A stretch of DNA of 64,000 nucleotides from an uncultured Gammaproteobacteria bacterium (GTDB lineage: Bacteria; Pseudomonadota; Gammaproteobacteria; DRLM01): NCBI GenBank assembly GCA_963729605.1, contig CAVSNY010000002.1, positions 1-64,000 of the forward strand. The letters are read 5' to 3'. A program made the position numbers and the translations under genes. Positions within the stretch are counted from its first letter, which is position 1, and every line of letters starts with the position of its first letter. Shown here piece after piece: positions 1,020 to 42,721 of the stretch. The notes below the pieces were generated by a model. That model was not told the DNA's origin and searched no databases. It was given only the letters and a program-made list of their open reading frames with translations.

Positions 1020-4000
1020 ATGCGCGGTTACGCCGCCATCGCAGCGGTATTTTCAATATTGATGGCTGGCTGGCCGGGTCTCGCCGAGGTGCGGGCCGCG
1101 TCGTCGGCGGCTGTCGATTCGGGGGTGCGTTCCCTTACTCAAATCGAATACGCCGGACGTAAGCCGACGCCGCTGGCGCGCGGTTTGACGGGCGCGGCCA
1201 ACGATGCCGCCGCGGTGCAATTCGTCCAAGGCGTGGTCCATCTCGATCCCCGTTATCTGCCGGTCTTGCGCGGCGATGAAGGCCATGTGCTGCTGCAATT
1301 CCGGGGGCCGCTCGACGCGGAACAACAACGGCGCCTGACCGAACACGGTGTAGCCCTGCTCGAATACATTCCCCGCAACACTTGGAAGGCGCGGGTGCGC
1401 AGCGCATCGCTGGCGGCCGTGCGCGGTCTGGATTTCGTCCAGGCGGTCGGCTCGATTTATCCGGTCGATAAATTGCCGGCGGCGATCCTCGCCGGGGATT
1501 TTCATCCCCGCTCGCTCAACGCCGACGGCAGTTTGAGTCTCGAAGTGTATTTCCATCCCGGTGTCGATTACGCCCGCGCGGCGGCCTTGCTGGCGGGGAT
1601 CGGCGCCGCGCCGGTCCAGGCCGATTTTTTGAGCGGCCGGCATTTGACGGTGCGCCTGCCGCAGAATCGGGTGATCGACCTGTTGGCCCTCGACAGCGTG
1701 GCGTGGGTGGAGGATCGCGAGGCGCCCAAGGCGAGACAGAACTCGGGCGCGGCGGCGCTCTCTCATGTGGACGTTTTGTGGCGGGCGCCGGCCAACCTCA
1801 GCGGCGCCGGTCTGGCCGTCGGCATGTGGGACGAGGGTCTGGTGGACGTTACTCACCCGGACCTGGCGAGCCATGTGGCCACCGGCGAGCCCGGTAACGT
1901 GGTGGGTCACGCCACGCACGTGGCCGGCACGTTGACCGGTTCGGGCGCCGGCAACAGCAGCGCGCGGGGCATGGCGCCCGCCGCCGCGGTGTGGTCCTAC
2001 GACTACTTCGGCGACCCGGTGGCGGAACACGCCGCCGCCCGCAAGGACCGCGGGATCGCGGTGGCCAATAATTCCTGGGGTTATCTCGCCGGCTGGCAAT
2101 CGAATTATTACAACGACGGGTATTGGGTGTGGTTCGGCGGCGCCGCCAACCAGCGCGACCCGGATTTCGGCGGTTATTCCTCGTTGACCCGCAATTGGGA
2201 CCGGCTGGTGTACGACACCGAACTGGTGGTGGTGAAGTCGGCGGGGAATGACCGCAACGAGCACGGGGCCGCGGGCCGCGCCCATCGCCACTACGGCGAC
2301 AGCACGACGCTGCATTACGATCACCACGATGCGGACGGCGATTATCGCAGCATCGGCCAGATCGCCACGGCCAAGAACGTGATCACGGTGGGCGCGGTGG
2401 ACCATGCCGGCGCCATGACCGCGTACAGCGCCTGGGGTCCCACCAACGACGGCCGGCTCAAGCCGGATGTGGTGGCCAAGGGCCAGGACGTGTATTCCAC
2501 GTATCTCGCGGGCGGTTACACCTCTTTGAACGGCACGTCGATGGCGACGCCGACCGTCAGCGGCGCCATCGCCCTGCTTATGGAGAGATACCGCAAGGTC
2601 ACCGGCAGCGTGGCGCCGCCGCCGGCCCACCTGATCCGCGCCCTGGTGGCCAACACCGCCACCGATCTCGGCACGCCGGGACCGGATTACGCCTATGGCT
2701 GGGGCCTGCTCGACGCGCAGGCCGCCCTCCGGGTGATCGACAGCGACGGTGGGGCCGGCCGCCGTTTTATCATCGACAGTATTCTGCAGGGTGTGGCGCG
2801 TCGCTACGACATCGAGGTCGGCGCCAATGCCGGGCCCCTGAAAATCAGCCTGGCCTGGACCGATCCGCCGGGCTCGCCCGGCGCCGGCGCCGCCTTGGTG
2901 AATGACTTGGACATCCGGCTGATCAGCCCCGCCGGGACGGTGTACCACCCTTACAGCCTGGCTGGATTGCGCGACCCCGCCGCGCCGGCCACCGCCCTCG
3001 GCCCCAATACCGTGGACAATCTCGAGCAGGTGCTGGTCGGGTCGCCGCAGGCCGGGCGGTGGCAGGTGGAGGTCCGCGGGACGCGGGTGCAGGGTTTGCA
3101 GTCCTATTCCCTGGTAAACAACCTCGACATGCCCGCCGACAACCTCCCGCCCGGCGGCGGTTATGTGGTCGTCAATCAAGGCGGCGAATATGCGCTCTCG
3201 GCCAAGGTGATGGTGTTTTTGGCGGGTTATGACAACCAGGGCGTGACCGGCTATTACTTGTCCGAAAATCCGGCGCGGCCGGTGTTGAGTCAATTCACCA
3301 CGGTGGACACCGTCGCGCGTCTCAGCCTCAATGTGCCTCATACGTTCTCCGCCGGTGACGGCGGCAAGACGCTTTATCTCTGGCTGCGCGACGCCTCCGG
3401 CAACATCAGCGAGGCGGTGTCGACCACGGTGAAACTGGACACCCGGCCGCCGGATCCGCCGCGGCTCGCCGTGAAGTCCGGGACCCAGGGCGCGCGGCCT
3501 CACTGGGAGTGGACATCGGGGGGCAATGGGATGGGCACCTTCCGCTACAAGCTCAATGATCCGCGTTTAAACGTGGGTGTCGCTGAAAGTCGGGATGTGG
3601 CCTTTATCCCCGGCGCGCCTTTGAGCCCGGGCACCCATGTCCTATACGTGCAGGAACGCGACGAAGCGGGTCATTGGTCGGCCGCGAGCCAGGCGAGCAT
3701 CACGATCACGGCGGAGGAATGGGACTCGTCGCAAATCGGAGCGAGCGGCGGCACCGTGCCGCTGCCACCCAGCCTGCGGGCCCTGACACCGGTGAACAAT
3801 CCCTTGCCGCGCTGGTTATGGAATTCTATAAACGGCGGCGGTATTTTCCGGCTGCGATTGGACGAGGCCGATCTCAGCGGCGCGGCGGAGACCACCGCGA
3901 CCGCGTTCGTCCCCGCGGCGCCGTTGGCCGACGGTCTGCACACGCTGCATATCCAGGAACGCGGCGCCGGCGGGTTGTGGTCGCCGGTGATCTCTTTCGC

Positions 4001-4418
4001 GGTCATGGTGGACACCGCCGCGCCGGTCACCACCGCCAGCATCACGGCCGCGGCCGCGGCCGCCACCCAGTGGGTGAGTTTGCATTGCGACGACATCGGC
4101 GCCGGCTGCGCGGCCACCTATTACACCTTGGACGGCAGCGTGCCCACGCCCCAGTCGCAGCGGTATAAGGGGATGATTCCGGTGAGCGCCAACACGACCC
4201 TGCGTTTCCTGTCGTTTGATCAGGCGGGCAACGTCGAGCCGGATCGCGTCGAGACTTATCTGGTCGGCGAGCCCGCCCAGGCCGCCAGCGGCGGGGGCGG
4301 CGGTAGTCTGTTCGCGGAATTGCTGCTGATGCTCGGCGCGCTCCCGTTGTTGGCGGCGCGGCGGCGCCGGGTTTTGGCGATCGCCGGTGACGCCCGGTTT
4401 ATTCGGCGCGGGTGCTGA
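1020..4418 (+). CDS. Secreted S8 (subtilisin-like) serine peptidase with beta-sandwich/Fn3-associated C-terminal domains and a GlyGly-CTERM-like tail
   Basis: Catalytic motifs MWDEG (Asp), HATHVAGT (His), GTSMATP (Ser), plus KSAGN and GRLKPDVVA. Signal peptide from ATG 1020 after a G-rich RBS. YYTLDGSVPT domain. Ends SGGGGGS-hydrophobic helix-RRRR. Confidence 0.9.
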   Translation: MRGYAAIAAVFSILMAGWPGLAEVRAASSAAVDSGVRSLTQIEYAGRKPTPLARGLTGAANDAAAVQFVQGVVHLDPRYLPVLRGDEGHVLLQFRGPLDAEQQRRLTEHGVALLEYIPRNTWKARVRSASLAAVRGLDFVQAVGSIYPVDKLPAAILAGDFHPRSLNADGSLSLEVYFHPGVDYARAAALLAGIGAAPVQADFLSGRHLTVRLPQNRVIDLLALDSVAWVEDREAPKARQNSGAAALSHVDVLWRAPANLSGAGLAVGMWDEGLVDVTHPDLASHVATGEPGNVVGHATHVAGTLTGSGAGNSSARGMAPAAAVWSYDYFGDPVAEHAAARKDRGIAVANNSWGYLAGWQSNYYNDGYWVWFGGAANQRDPDFGGYSSLTRNWDRLVYDTELVVVKSAGNDRNEHGAAGRAHRHYGDSTTLHYDHHDADGDYRSIGQIATAKNVITVGAVDHAGAMTAYSAWGPTNDGRLKPDVVAKGQDVYSTYLAGGYTSLNGTSMATPTVSGAIALLMERYRKVTGSVAPPPAHLIRALVANTATDLGTPGPDYAYGWGLLDAQAALRVIDSDGGAGRRFIIDSILQGVARRYDIEVGANAGPLKISLAWTDPPGSPGAGAALVNDLDIRLISPAGTVYHPYSLAGLRDPAAPATALGPNTVDNLEQVLVGSPQAGRWQVEVRGTRVQGLQSYSLVNNLDMPADNLPPGGGYVVVNQGGEYALSAKVMVFLAGYDNQGVTGYYLSENPARPVLSQFTTVDTVARLSLNVPHTFSAGDGGKTLYLWLRDASGNISEAVSTTVKLDTRPPDPPRLAVKSGTQGARPHWEWTSGGNGMGTFRYKLNDPRLNVGVAESRDVAFIPGAPLSPGTHVLYVQERDEAGHWSAASQASITITAEEWDSSQIGASGGTVPLPPSLRALTPVNNPLPRWLWNSINGGGIFRLRLDEADLSGAAETTATAFVPAAPLADGLHTLHIQERGAGGLWSPVISFAVMVDTAAPVTTASITAAAAAATQWVSLHCDDIGAGCAATYYTLDGSVPTPQSQRYKGMIPVSANTTLRFLSFDQAGNVEPDRVETYLVGEPAQAASGGGGGSLFAELLLMLGALPLLAARRRRVLAIAGDARFIRRGC

Positions 4419-4881
4419 TCACCTCGAAGCGCTGGCGCGACTCGCCGCGCATCTGCACGGTGGATTTGAAATAGGCCCGTTCACGGACATCCCGGGCCTG
4501 GCCCGGCGGGATTTTCGGTTTCAGGTTGACCGTGGTTTGATCGACGACCTCGCAGTGCCCGTCACTCATGCAGTCTTCGATGGAGATGCGCAGCACCACT
4601 TCCATGAGGGTGTAGTCCGGCGAGTGATTGCGCAAACGCCCCGACAAATCTTTCACGCCGCGCCCCGCTTCCGTTAAACGCATATCGGCCAATTCCACTT
4701 CGGAGGGCGCGATCCGTTGCTTGGATTGGCCCAGCTCATGGTCTTGATACCAGGCGAAGAAGGCGATGATGCCGACGATCACCACCAGCGCGATGGGCAC
4801 GGCGCGGCGCAGGTCTTTTTTGGTGATGAGAACGGCGAGGAGGATCACCGTGAAAATCAGCCCGAACAATCCCCAGATCAT
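4399..4881 (-). CDS. Hypothetical membrane-anchored protein (two TM helices then a periplasmic beta domain with a Cys pair)
   Basis: ORF 4399..5322 trimmed to ATG 4881 (MIWGLFG...), which follows a CAGGAAAG RBS-like sequence. Confidence 0.75.
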   Translation of the reverse strand: MIWGLFGLIFTVILLAVLITKKDLRRAVPIALVVIVGIIAFFAWYQDHELGQSKQRIAPSEVELADMRLTEAGRGVKDLSGRLRNHSPDYTLMEVVLRISIEDCMSDGHCEVVDQTTVNLKPKIPPGQARDVRERAYFKSTVQMRGESRQRFEVISTRAE

Positions 4882-5142
4882 GCTGTGTCTTTCCTGAAAG
4901 TGGTCGAGGCGTCGCTGAGTATAACAGCCTTGGGATACCCGCCGGTTTATCGGGGGCGAGCATGGCCGCGCGCCACGAGTATGGGCCGGTGCGCCGAGAG
5001 GGCGGAGCATGTTCACCAGGGATGTGAAATAGGGGTGAGCTGCGCCGCTATGCCGCGGCCGGCGGCGGATCGGGTGGGTGTGGCCCTTCGCCATGGAGGG
5101 AACATTTACCGTGCGGTGAAAAATTAAAGCTGTTTTATTATC

Positions 5143-38074: not shown

Positions 38075-40452
38075 TCACGGCACATTGGTCACCTGCACGA
38101 CGGCATTAGCCATAGTTATGTACAGCGTGGTGCCGGCTATCGAAACGCCAATTGGCAAATTCAATACGCCGGGTAACGCGCCTGGTACAAACCCTCTTGC
38201 GCCGGCTGTGCCTACAACAGTCGAGACGATCCCTGTTGGGGTGATCTTGCGGATGATGTGGTTGCCGGTATCCGCGACATATACATTACCAGCAGCATCG
38301 GTCGCGATGCCTTTTGGTCCGTTAAAGCTTGCTGCGCCTCCGATACCATCAACGTGCCCTACTACATGAGACGTGCCGGCCAGTGTCGTGACAACCCCTT
38401 CCGAGGTGATCTTACGGATGATGTGGTTGCCAGTGTCTGCAACATAAATATTCCCGTTAGCGTCGGTCGCGATGCCTACAGGAGAGACAAAACTTGCTGC
38501 CGATCCTGTTCCGTCCGCACCGTCACCCACGCAGGACAAATTAGGTCGCCAAGTAAAACCAGCCAAGGTGGTAACATTCCCAGCCGGAGTAATTTTGCGG
38601 ATGGTGCAATTGTAGGTATCCGCTACATAGATGTTGCGGTTAGGGTCTGCAGCAACACCCATGGGTGAGGAAAAACGTGCACTCGGGCCACTGCCATCGG
38701 CACTGCCTGGCCATGGCGGTGAAAAACCGGCAAGCGTCGTAACGTCCCCCGATGGGCTGATCTTGCGAATTGTGCTGTTTCCAGTGTCCGCGATATACAC
38801 ATAACCTGCATTGTCGGTCGTGACCCCACGGGGGGAAGAAAACAGTGCACCTGAAGCAGGGCCGTCGCTATTGCCATTTACCCCTGCCGCACCAGCCAGA
38901 GTTGTAACCGCGCCAGCCGGTGTGATCTTGCGGATCGTATGATTCCCGGTGTCCGCCACATAGATGTTACTGAGGCTATCGGTAGCAATGCCCGCAGGGC
39001 CCGTAAAACGCGCGGTCTCGCCTACACCGTCAGTAGTGCCAGACAAATCGGGGGCACCGGCTAGCGTAGTCGTCACACCAGCCGGCGTAATCTTGCGGAT
39101 AACATGACTGCCTCCATCCGCCACATAGACATTTCCATCGATATCAACTGCAACACCATACGGGCCTCTAAAACTCGCTGTTGCACCAACACCATCAGCG
39201 TAGCCAGCGACGCCGGCGGTACCTGCTAATGTCGTTACGATACCCTCTGAGGTTATTTTGCGAATAGTGTTGTTTCCAGTGTCCGCTACAAAGGCATTGC
39301 CATCGCGATCAATTGCAATACCTGTTGGATTTAGAAACCTCGCCGCTGCCCCAGTGCCATCGACATTTCCTCCGCCTATAGCTCCAGCCAGCGTGGTGAC
39401 AACCCCGGCCTGAGTAATTTTACGGATTTCGTTGTGGTAGACATCCGTGACATAAACATTACCAGCTGCGTCGGTAGCAACAGCGGACGGGATAAAAAAA
39501 GAAGCCGGTGAATGAAGATCGATGTAAGTGGTCCCCGCCAGTGTCGTGACTACTCCCTCTGGCGTGATTTTGCGGATATTATGGTTGCCGTAATCCGCGA
39601 CGTAAATGTTTCCATGAATGTCGGTAGCAATGTCTACTGGCGAATGAAAACTAGCGGCTGCGCCGATGCCATTAGCGCTACCAGTTATACCTGCGGTCCC
39701 CGCCAATGTGGTAACTACACCGAGTGAGGTGATCTTGCGAATGGTGTGGTTGCCCTGATCTGCCACATAGATGTTTCCGCTAGTGTCAGTCGCAATCCCC
39801 GCAGGAATTTCAAAACGCGCGGCGCCGCCAATTCCATCAGCACTACCCATCGCTCCTGCGGAGCCAGCCAATGTCGTGACGACCCCCGTCGGCGTAATCT
39901 TGCGGATAACATGATTTCCTCCATCCGCCACATAAATATTTCCATTTCCATCCGTGGCAACAGCGTGCGGAAGGTCAAATCGCGCTGCTGTGCCATTACC
40001 ATTGGTATTGCCTGCGCCACCCGGATTTCCCGCTAGCAGCGATAGCACTGGAAGCGTTACACAGGTCACGACTATATTTGTGACGTTCGCATCAGCTATG
40101 GCACCGGAGCCATTTGTTATGGTGCAGTTTTGACCCGTCGGCGATATACCAATGGCTACGCCGTATGCGGAGCCGGAACTCAAAGTCGTCGCAAATTGAA
40201 AAGGTCCATCGGCGTTTAGATTGAGCTCATCGTAGCCATTGTTGCGAAACGCGACCGTGCCCTCTAACCCGATATGGTACCGCCTACGGTATAGCTGGAA
40301 TTAGAACCAGCACCGCCGCCGCACGCCGCAAGCCCGAACAACGCAATCAGGATGAGAACTAAGAAACAGCAACTCGTGCGCTGTGACGCTCGCGCACGAG
40401 AGCCGCTGGCTCGGTAGAGAGCCTCGTCCAAGCACACGGGAATTGCATGCAT
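38075..40452 (-). CDS. NHL-repeat beta-propeller lipoprotein, frameshifted near 40266
   Basis: About 11 repeats of F..P.GIA.D..GNIYVADT.N..IRKIT..G.VTTLAG; lipobox LAAC-GGG in the upstream ORF joins if one base is added at TCGGGTTAGAG. Confidence 0.85.
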
Positions 40453-40509
40453 GTCAGAAATAATCGTATTATTTTCATTGTGATATTTTAAGGAAATATA
40501 CCGCGGATG

Positions 40510-40620
40510 ATCGTGATCTCGCAAGGGCAACCCCTTCGCGACGGCGGTGAATTACCGGTCGTTTGCCGCGAGCTGCGGTTCGATCATCCGCTTCGCGCGG
40601 CCTTAACTCCAACGTTGAGC
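40510..40620 (+). other. Degenerate attC-like site
   Basis: Ends GCGGCCTTAACTCCAACGTTGAGC (GTTRRRY core); the left RYYYAAC box is not recognisable. Confidence 0.35.
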
Positions 40621-40659
40621 CTGTAGAAAACCCATTTTCGCATCTATACTGCTCGCTCA

Positions 40660-41111
40660 ACTGTCAGAAGAGCTTGAGCAGAAAGATGCTGGATCGGCAG
40701 ATCAAAAATCAGTGAGCTCAAGATGAGCGCATCAGACGCTGATGGCGCTCGAAGGTGTCGGCCCCATCAGCGCCAGCGCGCTAGTCTCAGCCATCGGTGA
40801 TGCTCGCCAGTTCAAGAGTGGCCGGGATCTCGCCGCCTGGTTGGGGCTGGTTCCCAGTCAACACTCCAGTGGTGGCAAGGAGCGATTGGGGGCGATCTCA
40901 AAGCGCGGCGACACATACCTGCGCACCTTGTTGATTCATGGAGCACGCGGTGATCAGCAGCTGCGAAAAGAAAGAGGATCTTAAGAGCCAATGGTTCAAA
41001 GGAATCATGGCGAGGCGCAACAAGAATATCGCCACGGTAGCGCTTGCCAATAAAAACGCCCGTGTTATCTGGGCGGTTCTCAGTCGCGGTGAAAATTATC
41101 AGCCGGCCTGA
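40660..41111 (+). pseudogene. IS110-family (IS1111 group) transposase, C-terminal fragment with a frameshift
   Basis: EGVGPISA, FKSGRDLAAWLGLVPSQHSSGGK, SKRGDTYLRTLLIHGAR, then shifted VALANKNARVIWA; RuvC-like DEDD domain absent. Confidence 0.9.
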
Positions 41112-41159
41112 GAGGGTGGGCGCATTGTAAGAAATAGGTTTTGCAGGAGAAGGAGCGTT

Positions 41160-41345
41160 CCACCACGATTGCAGAGTGAATTGTATTGATGACAACCGGT
41201 CGAACCGGCACGTGTGAAACCTGACTATTGCGTGGGCCCTCTGGAAACAAGGCCGCTAGGGCGATCAGCTACACGTGAGTGGATATTCATTATGGCTCTG
41301 GGTATAAGCACCCTATACAGAAGCCGGATATACGGAAGCAGTCGT
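41160..41345 (+). ncRNA. IS1111-type bridge RNA/seekRNA region
   Basis: Long downstream non-coding end with nested stems and internal loops matching the flanking target and the IS end; boundaries approximate. Confidence 0.7.
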
Positions 41346-41381
41346 ACTTGGGTTGTCAGAAAAACAGTTTGTTTGCAAAAC

Positions 41382-41399
41382 GGGAGGAGTCCATATACA
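41382..41399 (+). mobile_element. IS1111-group right end with sub-terminal inverted repeat
   Basis: GGGAGGAGTCCATATACA. Confidence 0.75.
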
Positions 41400-41513
41400 C
41401 AATAATCAAAGGGCATTGCGCCCTACGCGCTTAGAGTAACAAACAGAGAACAAGGCGCGGAATAGTGAGGGCATACGCCACGACTTACCTTTTATGTGTT
41501 CCCTAAGTGAGGG

Positions 41514-42623
41514 TTAGGCGATTGAAGTCAGCGCATAGCTGGTGCTTCGACCGCCTCCCGGTTCGCGCACGAGAATACCCCTACTGATGAGGTCGTTGAT
41601 GTCGCGCAAAGCGGTATCGGGCGAAGACTTTGTAAGCTGCGCCCATTTGGAAGACGTCATCTTGCCTTCAAATCCATCCAGCAGTCGATTGACAATTTTG
41701 CGCTGACGCTCATTAAGCGGATGATCTTTGAACGTCTCCCAAAACCGCGCCTTTTGAATGACGCCCGCAAGCGTCTGCTCCGCTCCTTCGATTGCGCGGT
41801 CAAGGCATTCCAAGAACCATTCCAGCCACGCGGTGATATCGAGAGCGCCCTTCTGCGTGGCTTCCAGAACGTCGTAATAGGCTTTGCGCTCAAGCCGGAT
41901 TTGCGCCGACATGCTGTAGAAGCGCTGCGGGCTTTGCTCGGACCGCGCCAACGCCATATCTGCAATGGCGCGCGCAATCCGCCCGTTTCCATCGTCAAAC
42001 GGGTGGATGGTGACAAACCATAAATGCGCTAGGGCGGCCTTGAGCACTGGATCGTGCGAGGTGTCTTCGCCGAACCATTTTAGGAAGGCCGCCACTTCTG
42101 ATTCAAGGCGAGACGCTTTTGGCGCTTCGTAATGCACACGCTCGCGCCCGATTGAGCCGGAGACGACCTGCATCGGACCTGAGCTATCGTCGCGCCACGC
42201 CCCGACGATGATTTTGGTCATGCCGCTGCGCCCGGTCGGGAACAGGGCGGCGTGCCATGCAAAGAGCCGTTCGTCCGTCAGCGGCGCTTGAAATTTCTGG
42301 GTGGCGTCAAGCATCATTTCCACGACGCCTTCGACGTTCCGGTCAGCTGGAGCAAGTGCGCCGATATCCATCCCGAGCCGTCGCGCGATGGACGACCGGA
42401 CTTGTTCCTTATCGAGTATCTCGCCTTCGATCTCGCTGGACTTGAGAACATCCTCCGTGAGGGTGGCGAGGACGGCCTCCGCGCGCAAATCGAATCCCAG
42501 TGCTTCCATTCGCCCAATCAGCCGCCCCTGCCGATGGCGAACTGGTGCAAGGCGCTGAGCCAGCGCCCCTTCGTCCCATCGGAAATTCGGCCAATCTTGC
42601 AATTCGTGGATATACGTCGGCAT
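41514..42623 (-). CDS. Fic family protein with an N-terminal DUF4172-like region and C-terminal winged helix
   Basis: HPFDDGNGRIAR, inhibitory-like SSEIEGE, YIHELQDWPNFRW start, GGGRSTSY end. Confidence 0.92.
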   Translation of the reverse strand: MPTYIHELQDWPNFRWDEGALAQRLAPVRHRQGRLIGRMEALGFDLRAEAVLATLTEDVLKSSEIEGEILDKEQVRSSIARRLGMDIGALAPADRNVEGVVEMMLDATQKFQAPLTDERLFAWHAALFPTGRSGMTKIIVGAWRDDSSGPMQVVSGSIGRERVHYEAPKASRLESEVAAFLKWFGEDTSHDPVLKAALAHLWFVTIHPFDDGNGRIARAIADMALARSEQSPQRFYSMSAQIRLERKAYYDVLEATQKGALDITAWLEWFLECLDRAIEGAEQTLAGVIQKARFWETFKDHPLNERQRKIVNRLLDGFEGKMTSSKWAQLTKSSPDTALRDINDLISRGILVREPGGGRSTSYALTSIA

Positions 42624-42721
42624 TCTCCGCACCTCTTGCGGAGATTATGGCTGATATTCACCGCAAGCCGCAAGGTTAATCTCCGCAAAATATGCGGAGA
42701 TTATGGCCAATATTCGCCGCA
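42624..42721. repeat. Two palindromic operator-like repeats with a 56-bp period
   Basis: TCTCCGCA-N5-TGCGGAGATTATGGC-N2-ATATTC(A/G)CCGCA at 42624 and 42680. Confidence 0.75.

What the first reader, a model, noticed from the sequence alone, without database searches (positions are those of the whole stretch)
41160..41426. IS1111 bridge/seekRNA with readable guides that match the adjacent REP-like target
Seen: nested stems CACGTGT/ACACGTG, CTGA/TCAG and GGCC/GGCC enclose an internal loop with TATTGCG (41226-41232) and TAGGGCG (41257-41263). Together these spell the target TAGGG-CG-CAATA. The IS right end is followed directly by CAATA, then by ATTGCGCCCTAC (41415-41426), the other arm of a GTAGGGCGCAAT palindrome. 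A second loop holds ATATACG (41328-41334), matching the IS end ATATACA, and CATTATG (41288-41294), predicting a left end that begins TAATG. Known: IS110/IS1111 recombinases use a non-coding RNA with target- and donor-binding loops. Inference: a natural guide specificity for GTAG-type REPs that persists although the transposase is dead, and possibly usable in trans.
Basis: partly seen in the sequence, partly recalled or inferred. Interest (0 to 1): 0.75.

Follow-up and report, generated by a model that had tools for sequence, protein, structure and literature searches.

The report
Relic IS1111 guide RNA aimed at REPs
This is the leftover right-hand part of a jumping gene of the IS1111 type, still carrying the small guide-RNA gene that once steered it into a repeated palindrome (REP) of the host genome; it is a clear but ordinary example of a mechanism described in 2024.

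Summary
In detail: every motif sits at the stated coordinates. Window 40648-41397 is a 5'-truncated, indel-ridden copy of an IS1111-group insertion sequence lying in a GTAG-type REP. Its 3' non-coding region encodes a seekRNA/bridge-RNA-like structure. Across 53 distinct relatives the stems are kept by compensatory changes: 97% of cells pair, covariation score 0.53 against 0.17 in shuffles. The loop strands co-vary with each element's own flanks and ends; 0 of 2000-5000 permutations reach the observed match. The target loop (UAUUGCG / UAGGGCG) spells TAGGG-CG-CAATA, the host REP. The joined flanks of the only other copy match 7 uninterrupted REPs at 2-4 substitutions in 44 nt. The left end starts CAATGAA, not TAATG. 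The left-end guide is AUUCAU (41285-41290), not CAUUAUG. Use in trans has no support: the assembly holds no intact transposase, and the RNA region is no better conserved than the dead gene. RNA-guided REP targeting by IS1111 elements is already in print (ISPa11, ISPpu10). Verdict: new, decayed member of a known kind.

The parts
40648..41111 (+). Remnant of the transposase gene (about residues 148-338 of a 338-aa protein). It is broken by 14-bp, 1-bp and 2-bp deletions; the N-terminal DEDD domain, left end and promoter are missing.
   Evidence: Alignment to the other copy; Pfam PF02371 only; tblastn with stops inside.
41112..41397 (+). 3' non-coding region of the IS up to its right end; 286 nt, as in the relatives (right repeat begins 239-319 nt after the stop codon).
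41187..41192 (+). Conserved UGAUGR box, complementary to the 5' strand of the donor loop (possible closing helix).
   Evidence: 47-50 of 50 sequences pair at each of 6 positions, with compensatory changes at two.
41196..41208 (+). Small hairpin CCGG-UCGAA-CCGG in front of the target stem-loop.
   Evidence: Read directly; conserved in alignment A3. Its pairs were not in the structure counted.
41209..41277 (+). Target-binding stem-loop. Helices: P1 41209-41215/41271-41277, P2 41221-41224/41265-41268, P3 41235-41238/41251-41254.
   Evidence: 12 of these 14 pairs show changes on both sides; 94-96% of cells pair.
41226..41232 (+). 5' strand of the target loop, UAUUGCG: complement of the top strand CGCAATA (right half of the target).
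41257..41263 (+). 3' strand of the target loop, UAGGGCG: same sense as the top strand TAGGG+CG, so it pairs with the bottom strand of the left half of the target.
   Evidence: in 38 of 49 relatives the longest exact match is 6 nt, in 2 it is 7 nt.
41278..41345 (+). Donor-binding part. Helix P5 41294-41297/41322-41325 with inner hairpin 41300-41303/41310-41313, flanked by the two donor strands.
   Evidence: helix 5: 3 pairs with changes on both sides, 99.5% of cells pair. The inner hairpin is from the single-sequence fold only.
41285..41290 (+). 5' strand of the donor loop, AUUCAU: complement of ATGAAx in the left end CAATGAAAT.
41328..41334 (+). 3' strand of the donor loop, AUAUACG: same sense as the right end ...ATATA plus the next two bases.
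41382..41394 (+). Right sub-terminal inverted repeat GGGAGGAGTCCAT. Its left partner ATGGACTCCTCCC is lost in the window and present in L002.
41395..41397 (+). 3-bp right terminal extension ATA; the IS ends at 41397 by the published convention of a 7-bp left and a 3-bp right extension.
   Evidence: PMC11187229, Introduction passage.
41398..41426 (+). Right part of the interrupted REP: CACAATA-ATCAAAGGGC-ATTGCGCC-CTAC. The typical REP of this genome reads CGCAATA-ACCGAAGGGC-ATTGCGCC.

Best explanation
Window 40648-41397 is a dead, 5'-truncated copy of an IS1111-group (IS110-family) insertion sequence that entered a GTAG-type REP of the host.

Its 3' non-coding region is the gene for the element's guide RNA (seekRNA / bridge RNA). 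In the active ancestor this RNA would have had two parts.

- Target stem-loop (41209-41277). Its internal loop pairs with both strands of the REP. UAUUGCG pairs with the top strand CGCAATA. UAGGGCG pairs with the bottom strand of TAGGGCG. The two overlap on CG.
- Donor part (41278-41345). AUUCAU pairs with the left end (ATGAA...). AUAUACG has the sense of the right end (...ATATA+CG).

Bound to the DEDD transposase, the RNA would bring the joined ends of the excised circle to the REP, and the element would insert without duplication at GTAGGG^CGCAATA.

Shown here: the anatomy, the conserved structure, the co-variation of loop letters with flanks and ends, and the duplication-free insertion site. 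Inferred from published work on relatives: that the RNA is made, binds the transposase and guides recombination.

In this genome the system is most likely inert. The window copy lacks the catalytic domain, the left end and the promoter. The only other copy lacks 31 residues, 12 of them nearly invariant in the family.
For: Family:
- The transposase remnant is PF02371. The sister copy L002 has PF01548 + PF02371.
- A 90%-identical 338-aa relative scores 368.6 bits on NCBIfam NF033542, 'IS110 family RNA-guided transposase'.

Anatomy:
- A 13-bp sub-terminal repeat, a 7-bp left extension and a 3-bp right extension are seen in L002. Repeats of 11-14 bp were found in 53 of the 81 loci examined.

Structure:
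- 23 pairs counted on 53 distinct sequences: 97.0% of cells pair against 78.5% in shuffles.
- 225 cells changed on both sides against 62.8 in shuffles.
- Covariation score 0.530 against 0.172 (0 of 500 shuffles reach it); slid controls give at most 0.102.

Guide and target:
- Summed longest exact match between the 5' loop strand and the element's own right flank is 275, against a permuted mean of 148 and maximum of 178 (0 of 2000; n = 47).
- For the 3' loop strand and the own left flank it is 277, against 148.5 and 178 (0 of 2000; n = 49).

Guide and donor:
- Left end: 269 against a mean of 223 and maximum of 238 (0 of 5000; n = 51).
- Right end: 328 against 309 and 319 (0 of 5000; n = 49).

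Target:
- TAGGGCGCAATA occurs 12 times exactly in the genome, as part of the REP GCGTAGGGCGCAATA-ACCGAAGGGC-ATTGCGCC.
- The joined flanks of L002 (44 nt) match 7 uninterrupted genome sites with 2-4 substitutions.
- The congener's relic lies at ...ATA^CGCAATAACCGAAGGGCATTGCG.
- The closest relative, L006, lies at GTAGGG^TGCAATA.

Order of the strands:
- It is as published for IS1111 seekRNAs (PMC11187229, section read).
Against: - No RNA data: no listed sequencing run is RNA, and no plus-strand sigma-70-like site was found at 40300-41600. Transcription of this copy is therefore not shown.
- Rfam 15 has no match to the region even at E <= 10.
- The window's own junction is imperfect. The flank reads CACAATA, not CGCAATA (6 of 7 with the guide). 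L002's guide reads UAUUGCA.
- The left flank of the window copy is lost, so its left half-site cannot be read.
- The fit of guides to flanks across the family is not perfect. For the right flank, 13 of 47 loci share only 3-4 nt; some are probably rearranged or mis-assembled.
- The related sequences are not independent, so the permutation counts overstate significance.
- The 3' half of the left-end guide (AUYA) pairs as well or better with an upstream UGAUGR box of the RNA itself. Its role as a DNA guide is uncertain.
Confidence: 0.9

Rival explanations
1. The relic RNA is still made and used in trans: a working transposase elsewhere in the cell loads it and can still recombine at REPs.
For: The target loop of the window copy is intact and identical to the congener's (0 mismatches in 87 nt). 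12 exact target sites remain in the genome. The seekRNA paper reports that a seekRNA is not strictly tied to a closely related transposase (PMC11187229, section 9, read).
Against: The assembly holds one DEDD domain and two PF02371 matches, all from the two decayed copies. The one full-length-like gene lacks 31 residues, including 12 positions conserved in at least 90% of 14 relatives. The window copy has lost its left end and left repeat, so it cannot itself be moved. No promoter-like site was found on the plus strand. The RNA region is not better conserved than the dead gene.
Confidence: 0.04
2. The relic has been taken over by the host as a small RNA that pairs with REP-containing transcripts, through its UAUUGCG and UAGGGCG strands.
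For: Only the general point that REPs are often transcribed and that four relics in two congeners all keep the RNA region.
Against: There is no excess conservation and no expression data. The flanking region is absent from the three congeners searched, so this locus is not a conserved host feature.
Confidence: 0.03
3. There is no guide RNA: the region is an ordinary 3' untranslated tail and the matches to the flank are coincidence.
For: The single-sequence fold is not unusually stable (z = -0.95). There is no Rfam match.
Against: The stems are kept by compensatory changes in 53 sequences. The loop letters follow the flanks in all four comparisons. The paired motif is unique in the window; 0 of 100 shuffles gave a match.
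Confidence: 0.02
4. A variant of the main reading. The donor part is not a simple internal loop. The 5' strand YCAUYA pairs with the upstream UGAUGR box (41187-41192) to close a multi-branch structure, and only its first 3-4 letters, or none, read the left end.
For:: each of the 6 positions pairs in 47-50 of 50 sequences. Column 45/168 shows GC 31, GU 14, AU 5, and the C/U there follows the RNA partner, not the left-end DNA, which is A in nearly all. Durrant et al. (PMC11208160, passage read) note that many IS1111 bridge RNAs carry donor-binding letters in a multi-loop.
Against: Further 5' in the guide strand, the letters follow the left-end DNA (AA, GA, GG, GT, AC classes) and not the upstream box. 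A third partner (GAU at 41327-41329) is equally compatible.
Confidence: 0.3

Closest known systems
ISPa11 (IS1111 group) and its seekRNA
   Same: It is an IS1111-type element that inserts into REPs. Its seekRNA is encoded downstream of the transposase gene, with the top-strand complement placed 5' of the bottom-strand complement. It was shown to co-purify with the transposase (PMC11187229; Introduction passage and sections 8-9 read).
   Different: The host and the REP sequence differ (Pseudomonas aeruginosa). I hold no ISPa11 sequence, so identity could not be measured. The copy here is truncated and inert.
ISPpu10 / ISPa11 predicted bridge RNAs (Durrant et al. 2024)
   Same: Bridge RNAs were predicted in the right end of 93% of IS1111 elements, with loops complementary to target, donor and core. 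ISPpu10 and ISPa11 are among the six inspected by hand (PMC11208160; section 'Diverse IS110s encode bridge RNAs' and the legend of Extended Data Fig. 10 read).
   Different: The figures and supplementary tables could not be seen, so I cannot say whether the loop geometry found here (both donor strands flanking one helix, plus an upstream complementary box) matches theirs.
IS621 bridge RNA (IS110 group)
   Same: The logic is the same: one RNA with a target loop and a donor loop, each reading one strand of each half-site, with the guides overlapping on a central dinucleotide.
   Different: The IS621 RNA lies in the left end, upstream of the gene, and the strand order is reversed. IS621 has only 2-3-bp sub-terminal repeats. 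Its core is CT on both junctions (recalled). Here the left junction reads CA and the right junction CG in most loci.
ISPpu9 and orphan ssr9 modules (Pseudomonas putida)
   Same: It is a REP-targeting IS110-family element with a small-RNA gene downstream of the transposase gene, and RNA-only copies occur elsewhere in the genome (PMC12288879; abstract and section 14 read). This is comparable to the transposase-less right end at G000:C3:8911-9089.
   Different: Ssr9 was reported as not required for transposition, and its modules have their own boundary boxes. The relics here have ragged truncation points inside the gene and no left repeat, so they look like deletions, not modules.

Membership tests
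IS1111 group of the IS110 family | Transposase with an N-terminal DEDD/RuvC-like domain (PF01548) and a C-terminal PF02371 domain, 330-350 aa. | tested here: inconclusive
   The window copy has PF02371 only (truncated). The sister copy L002 has both domains but is 307 aa, with a 31-aa gap. Relatives of 90% identity and below are 337-338 aa. The feature is met for the element type and not for this copy.
IS1111 group of the IS110 family | Sub-terminal inverted repeats of about 11-13 bp with asymmetric terminal extensions (7 bp left, 3 bp right). | tested here: met
   L002 has ATGGACTCCTCCC / GGGAGGAGTCCAT with CAATGAA on the left and ATA on the right. The same layout is seen in 53 of 81 loci examined. 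The window keeps the right repeat and ATA only.
IS1111 group of the IS110 family | The long non-coding region lies downstream of the transposase gene. | tested here: met
   286 nt from the stop codon (41111) to the end (41397); about 81 nt upstream in L002.
IS1111 group of the IS110 family | Site-specific insertion without target duplication. | tested here: met
   The joined flanks of L002 match 7 uninterrupted REPs at 2-4 substitutions in 44 nt. One base (C) is ambiguous between the IS and the target.
seekRNA / bridge RNA | A conserved stem-loop whose internal loop carries one strand complementary to the top and one to the bottom strand of the target, overlapping at the crossover. | tested here: met
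   Structure. Loop against flanks: (0 of 2000 permutations for each side). Both strands cover CG.
seekRNA / bridge RNA | A second set of guide letters matching the two ends of the element (donor). | tested here: met
   (0 of 5000 permutations for each end). The 3' half of the left-end strand is ambiguous.
seekRNA / bridge RNA | The RNA is transcribed, binds the transposase and is needed for transposition. | not testable with these tools
   No RNA run is listed. This rests on published work with ISEc11, ISPa11 and ISKpn4 (PMC11187229).
Rfam RNA families | A match to a curated covariance model. | tested here: not met
   There was no relevant match at E <= 10 in 40300-41700; the only row was a chance microRNA hit inside the gene remnant.

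The most novel reading that the evidence does not exclude
Right ends that carry the guide-RNA gene outlive the rest of IS1111 elements more often than chance allows. All four relics seen in two congeners keep the right end and the RNA region: the window copy; the internally deleted copy; a transposase-less right end of another lineage at G000:C3:8911-9089; and the congener's stump. Such orphan guide modules would then be kept or spread because the RNA does something on its own, for example pairing with REP transcripts, or recruiting an incoming transposase to REPs.
Probability: 0.06. Interest if true: 0.6.

Novelty: new member of a known kind. Interest (0 to 1): 0.27.

Why it matters
The finding adds one more natural case in which the guide letters of an IS1111-type RNA can be read straight against a host REP. 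It comes with a family-wide table of 53 non-coding regions in which the four loop strands follow their DNA partners. This is useful as an annotation rule: the insertion site and the element ends can be predicted from the loop letters. It also gives a small natural catalogue of guide and target pairs. It does not change the picture drawn by the 2024 seekRNA and bridge-RNA papers, and the copy in this window is a dead relic.

Tried and rejected
- Rfam scan of 40300-41700 at E <= 10: only a chance microRNA row.
- Exact 18-mer of the 5' target strand (one position degenerate) scanned in metagenome contigs: 5 hits, none of which is an IS; no repeat, no RNA-like context. This gave no further elements with the same guide.
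- Empty-site search in three congeners with the left flank (39900-40647) and the right flank (41398-42100): no orthologous locus, only the REP itself. The uninterrupted target had to be taken from paralogous REPs.
- Sequencing runs: 'no RNA holder listed'; no reads were laid.
- Promoter scan: no plus-strand site at the tool's threshold. This is weak either way.
- Unanchored MAFFT alignment of whole 352-nt downstream regions: too gappy to read. It was replaced by anchoring on the right repeat.
- Fixed-register comparison of the 5' target strand: it under-counts, because the strand sits 1-2 nt differently in some lineages. It was replaced by the longest exact match with the same rule for permuted pairs.
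- Sequence left of the truncation point (40380-40660): unique in the genome. Its origin was not explained.
- Earlier notes of this scan: none for this place.
- A 2-nt 'core' exchanged as heteroduplex was considered as an explanation for the window's CA where the guide says CG. However, the left junction reads CA or TA in 48 of the 51 loci whose left end could be read (the exceptions are CG, TG and AA), so random resolution is not supported. A later G-to-A change is as likely. Left open.

Full report
**What is there.** The window between 40648 and 41397 (+) aligns to a second locus of the same genome, L002 = G000:C3, at 96-98% identity. Homology starts abruptly at 40648, in the middle of a transposase gene. 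In the window that gene is further broken by deletions of 14, 1 and 2 bp. The remnant matches Pfam PF02371 only. The L002 gene has PF01548 (DEDD) plus PF02371. Relatives in the protein collection are 337-338 aa; the closest intact one, P0002, is 90% identical. The L002 protein is 307 aa because 31 residues are missing in frame, among them 12 positions conserved in at least 90% of 14 aligned relatives. P0002 scores 368.6 bits on NCBIfam NF033542, 'IS110 family RNA-guided transposase'. Searches of the whole assembly (94.5% complete) with the protein and with both Pfam families find nothing beyond these two loci.

**Ends and target.** L002 shows the full anatomy: left flank ...GCGTAGGG, then CAATGAA, then ATGGACTCCTCCC; at the right GGGAGGAGTCCAT, then ATA, then CGCAATAACCGCAGGGCATTGCGCC. 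A 13-bp sub-terminal inverted repeat with a 7-bp left and a 3-bp right extension is the layout described for the IS1111 family (PMC11187229, Introduction passage seen). The host genome carries a REP, GCGTAGGGCGCAATA-ACCGAAGGGC-ATTGCGCC-GGATG; TAGGGCGCAATA occurs 12 times exactly. The two flanks of L002, joined, match 7 uninterrupted sites of the genome with 2-4 substitutions in 44 nt. Insertion therefore made no duplication and lies at GTAGGG^CGCAATA; the C could belong to either side. In the window the right repeat is at 41382-41394 and ATA at 41395-41397. The flank reads CACAATA-ATCAAAGGGC-ATTGCGCC-CTAC. This is the same REP with three transitions, followed by the CTAC that makes the far arm read GTAGGGCGCAAT on the minus strand. 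That 12-mer is the only one in the 64-kb window.

**The observation.** The single-sequence fold draws the same nested stems, but its energy is unremarkable (z = -0.95). The two target strands 24 nt apart occur once in the window; 0 of 100 shuffles gave a match.

**Family evidence for an RNA structure.**
- I collected 80 loci encoding relatives of 53-78% identity from genome contigs.
- I anchored each on its right repeat. A repeat of 11-14 bp was found in 53 of the 81 loci examined. The rest are cut by contig ends or gave only spurious 8-mers.
- I aligned 53 distinct sequences of the region, the window and L002 included.
- Counted against controls, 97.0% of 1217 cells pair (shuffled 78.5%), and 225 cells are changed on both sides (shuffled 62.8).
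- The covariation score is 0.530 against 0.172 (0 of 500 shuffles reach it). Sliding the 3' partners by 1-3 columns gives at most 0.102.
- Helix 4 (2 pairs) never varies and says nothing.

**Family evidence for guides.** For each element I compared the loop strands with its own flanks and ends, and with those of the other elements.
- The 3' strand of the first loop repeats the last five bases of the left flank plus the next one or two. The longest exact match is 6 nt in 38 of 49 loci and 7 nt in 2. The sum is 277 against a permuted mean of 148.5 and maximum of 178 (0 of 2000).
- The reverse complement of the 5' strand matches the right flank. The sum is 275 against 148 and 178 (0 of 2000; n = 47). 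29 of 47 loci share 6-9 nt, and 13 of 47 share only 3-4 nt.
- Examples make the point better than the sums: TAGCCC / UAGCCCG, TGACCT / UGACCUG with TGCCCCC on the right, and CAAAGC / CAAAGCA with CAGACGTT on the right.
- The order is the published one for IS1111 seekRNAs and the reverse of IS110 types: the top-strand complement first, the bottom-strand complement second, the two overlapping in the target (PMC11187229, section 9 and Introduction passage).
- In the second part, the strand 5' of helix P5 is the complement of positions 3-8 of the left end. Own matches are 4/5/6 of 6 in 5/27/19 loci. The sum is 269 against 223 and a maximum of 238 (0 of 5000).
- The classes AA, GA, GG, GT and AC change in step.
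- The strand 3' of P5 repeats the right end plus the next two bases. 35 of 49 loci match 7 of 7. The sum is 328 against 309 and 319 (0 of 5000).
- The sequences are related, so these counts overstate independence. The number of separate changes is nearer five to ten per strand.

- The left end starts CAATGAAAT in L002 and in the nearest relative L006, not TAATG. TAATG occurs only in distant lineages.
- The left-end guide is AUUCAU at 41285-41290.
It also includes 41291 T, a change private to the window.
- That constant part can pair with a conserved UGAUGR box upstream (41187-41192). Each of the six positions pairs in 47-50 of 50 sequences, and the C/U variation follows the RNA partner rather than the left-end DNA. 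It can also pair with GAU just 3' of P5.
- Durrant et al. remark that many IS1111 bridge RNAs hold their donor letters in a multi-loop (PMC11208160, passage seen). The box may be the closing helix of such a multi-loop. I leave this open at about 0.3.

**Is the relic still doing anything?** Nothing says so.
- Between the window and L002 there are 8 mismatches in 464 aligned nt of dead gene, and 9 in 286 nt of non-coding region (1 in the hairpin plus target stem-loop, 3 in the donor part). The RNA gene has not been kept any better than the wreck around it; the copies are simply young.
- Each copy now has one flaw at the junction. The window's flank has A where its guide expects G, and L002's guide has A where the window and the congener have G.
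- The window copy has no left repeat and no plus-strand promoter-like site.
- No RNA run was listed.
- The flanks are absent from the three congeners searched.

**Other relics.** A covariance model built from the alignment finds the two copies (137.6 and 133.4 bits). It also finds a third stretch at G000:C3:8911-9089 (-), at 75.5 bits, followed by GGGGGGAATCCAT, with no transposase remnant beside it (19, 68). This is the orphan right end of another lineage. Congener G001 has a shorter stump of the window's element in a REP at another locus, and one further family member. All four relics keep the right end. With four cases this is only a note.

**Comparison with what is known.**
- RNA-guided target choice by IS1111 elements was shown in 2024. 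The seekRNA of the REP-targeting ISPa11 co-purifies with its transposase (PMC11187229, sections 8-9 read).
- Bridge RNAs were predicted in the right end of 93% of IS1111 elements, with ISPpu10 and ISPa11 inspected by hand (PMC11208160; section read, figure not seen).
- REPs as IS targets go back to Tobes and Pareja 2006, which I saw only as a reference entry.
- The present element meets the family's tested features (see the membership table). It differs only in host, REP sequence and state of decay.
- I could not consult ISfinder or the supplements, so it may even bear a name.
- Verdict: a confirmed, well-read but ordinary and inert example; a new member of a known kind.

Noticed in passing
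G000:C3:8911-9089 (-) = L096:1501-1679 (-): A third seekRNA-like stretch in the same genome (75.5 bits, E about 1e-20 with model R1). It is followed by a right-repeat-like GGGGGGAATCCAT, with no transposase remnant beside it: an orphan right end of a different IS1111 lineage. Its loop strands do not match its right flank.
   Followed up: partly
L088 (G001:C44, minus strand, about locus 1500-1990): A congener carries a shorter stump of the same element (the last ~170 nt of the gene, the non-coding region and the right end), 96% identical. It lies in a REP at an unrelated locus; its right flank is CGCAATAACCGAAGGGCATTGCGTCCTACGCG. The same genome has another family member (L093, 124 bits).
   Followed up: partly
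window 41187-41192 with 41288-41293: A conserved UGAUGR box is complementary to the YCAUYA part of the donor strand in 47-50 of 50 relatives per position, with compensatory changes at two positions. It may be a closing helix of a multi-loop, or a mimic of the left end.
   Followed up: partly
L002:577-1500: The only full-length-like transposase gene of the genome has a clean in-frame loss of 31 codons (residues 135-165 of the 338-aa relatives) in the conserved LVNEIRGLL.EFG stretch.
   Followed up: yes
window 38075-40530 (-): A 702-aa NHL-repeat protein (PF01436, 240 bits). Its lipoprotein-like N-terminus (88-aa frame, 40264-40530) lies in a different frame, so the gene is probably frameshifted.
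   Followed up: no
window 41514-42632 (-): The right neighbour of the REP is a DUF4172 + Fic/DOC family protein (PF13776 119 bits, PF02661 59.6 bits).
   Followed up: no
window 40380-40647: The sequence left of the truncation point is unique in the genome and absent from three congeners. What replaced the left half of the IS was not identified.
   Followed up: partly
loci L028, L035, L049 (genome contigs): L028 and L049 share an identical 22-nt left flank but have different right flanks, and L028/L035 guides do not match their right flanks. This suggests recombination between copies, or chimeric assembly.
   Followed up: no
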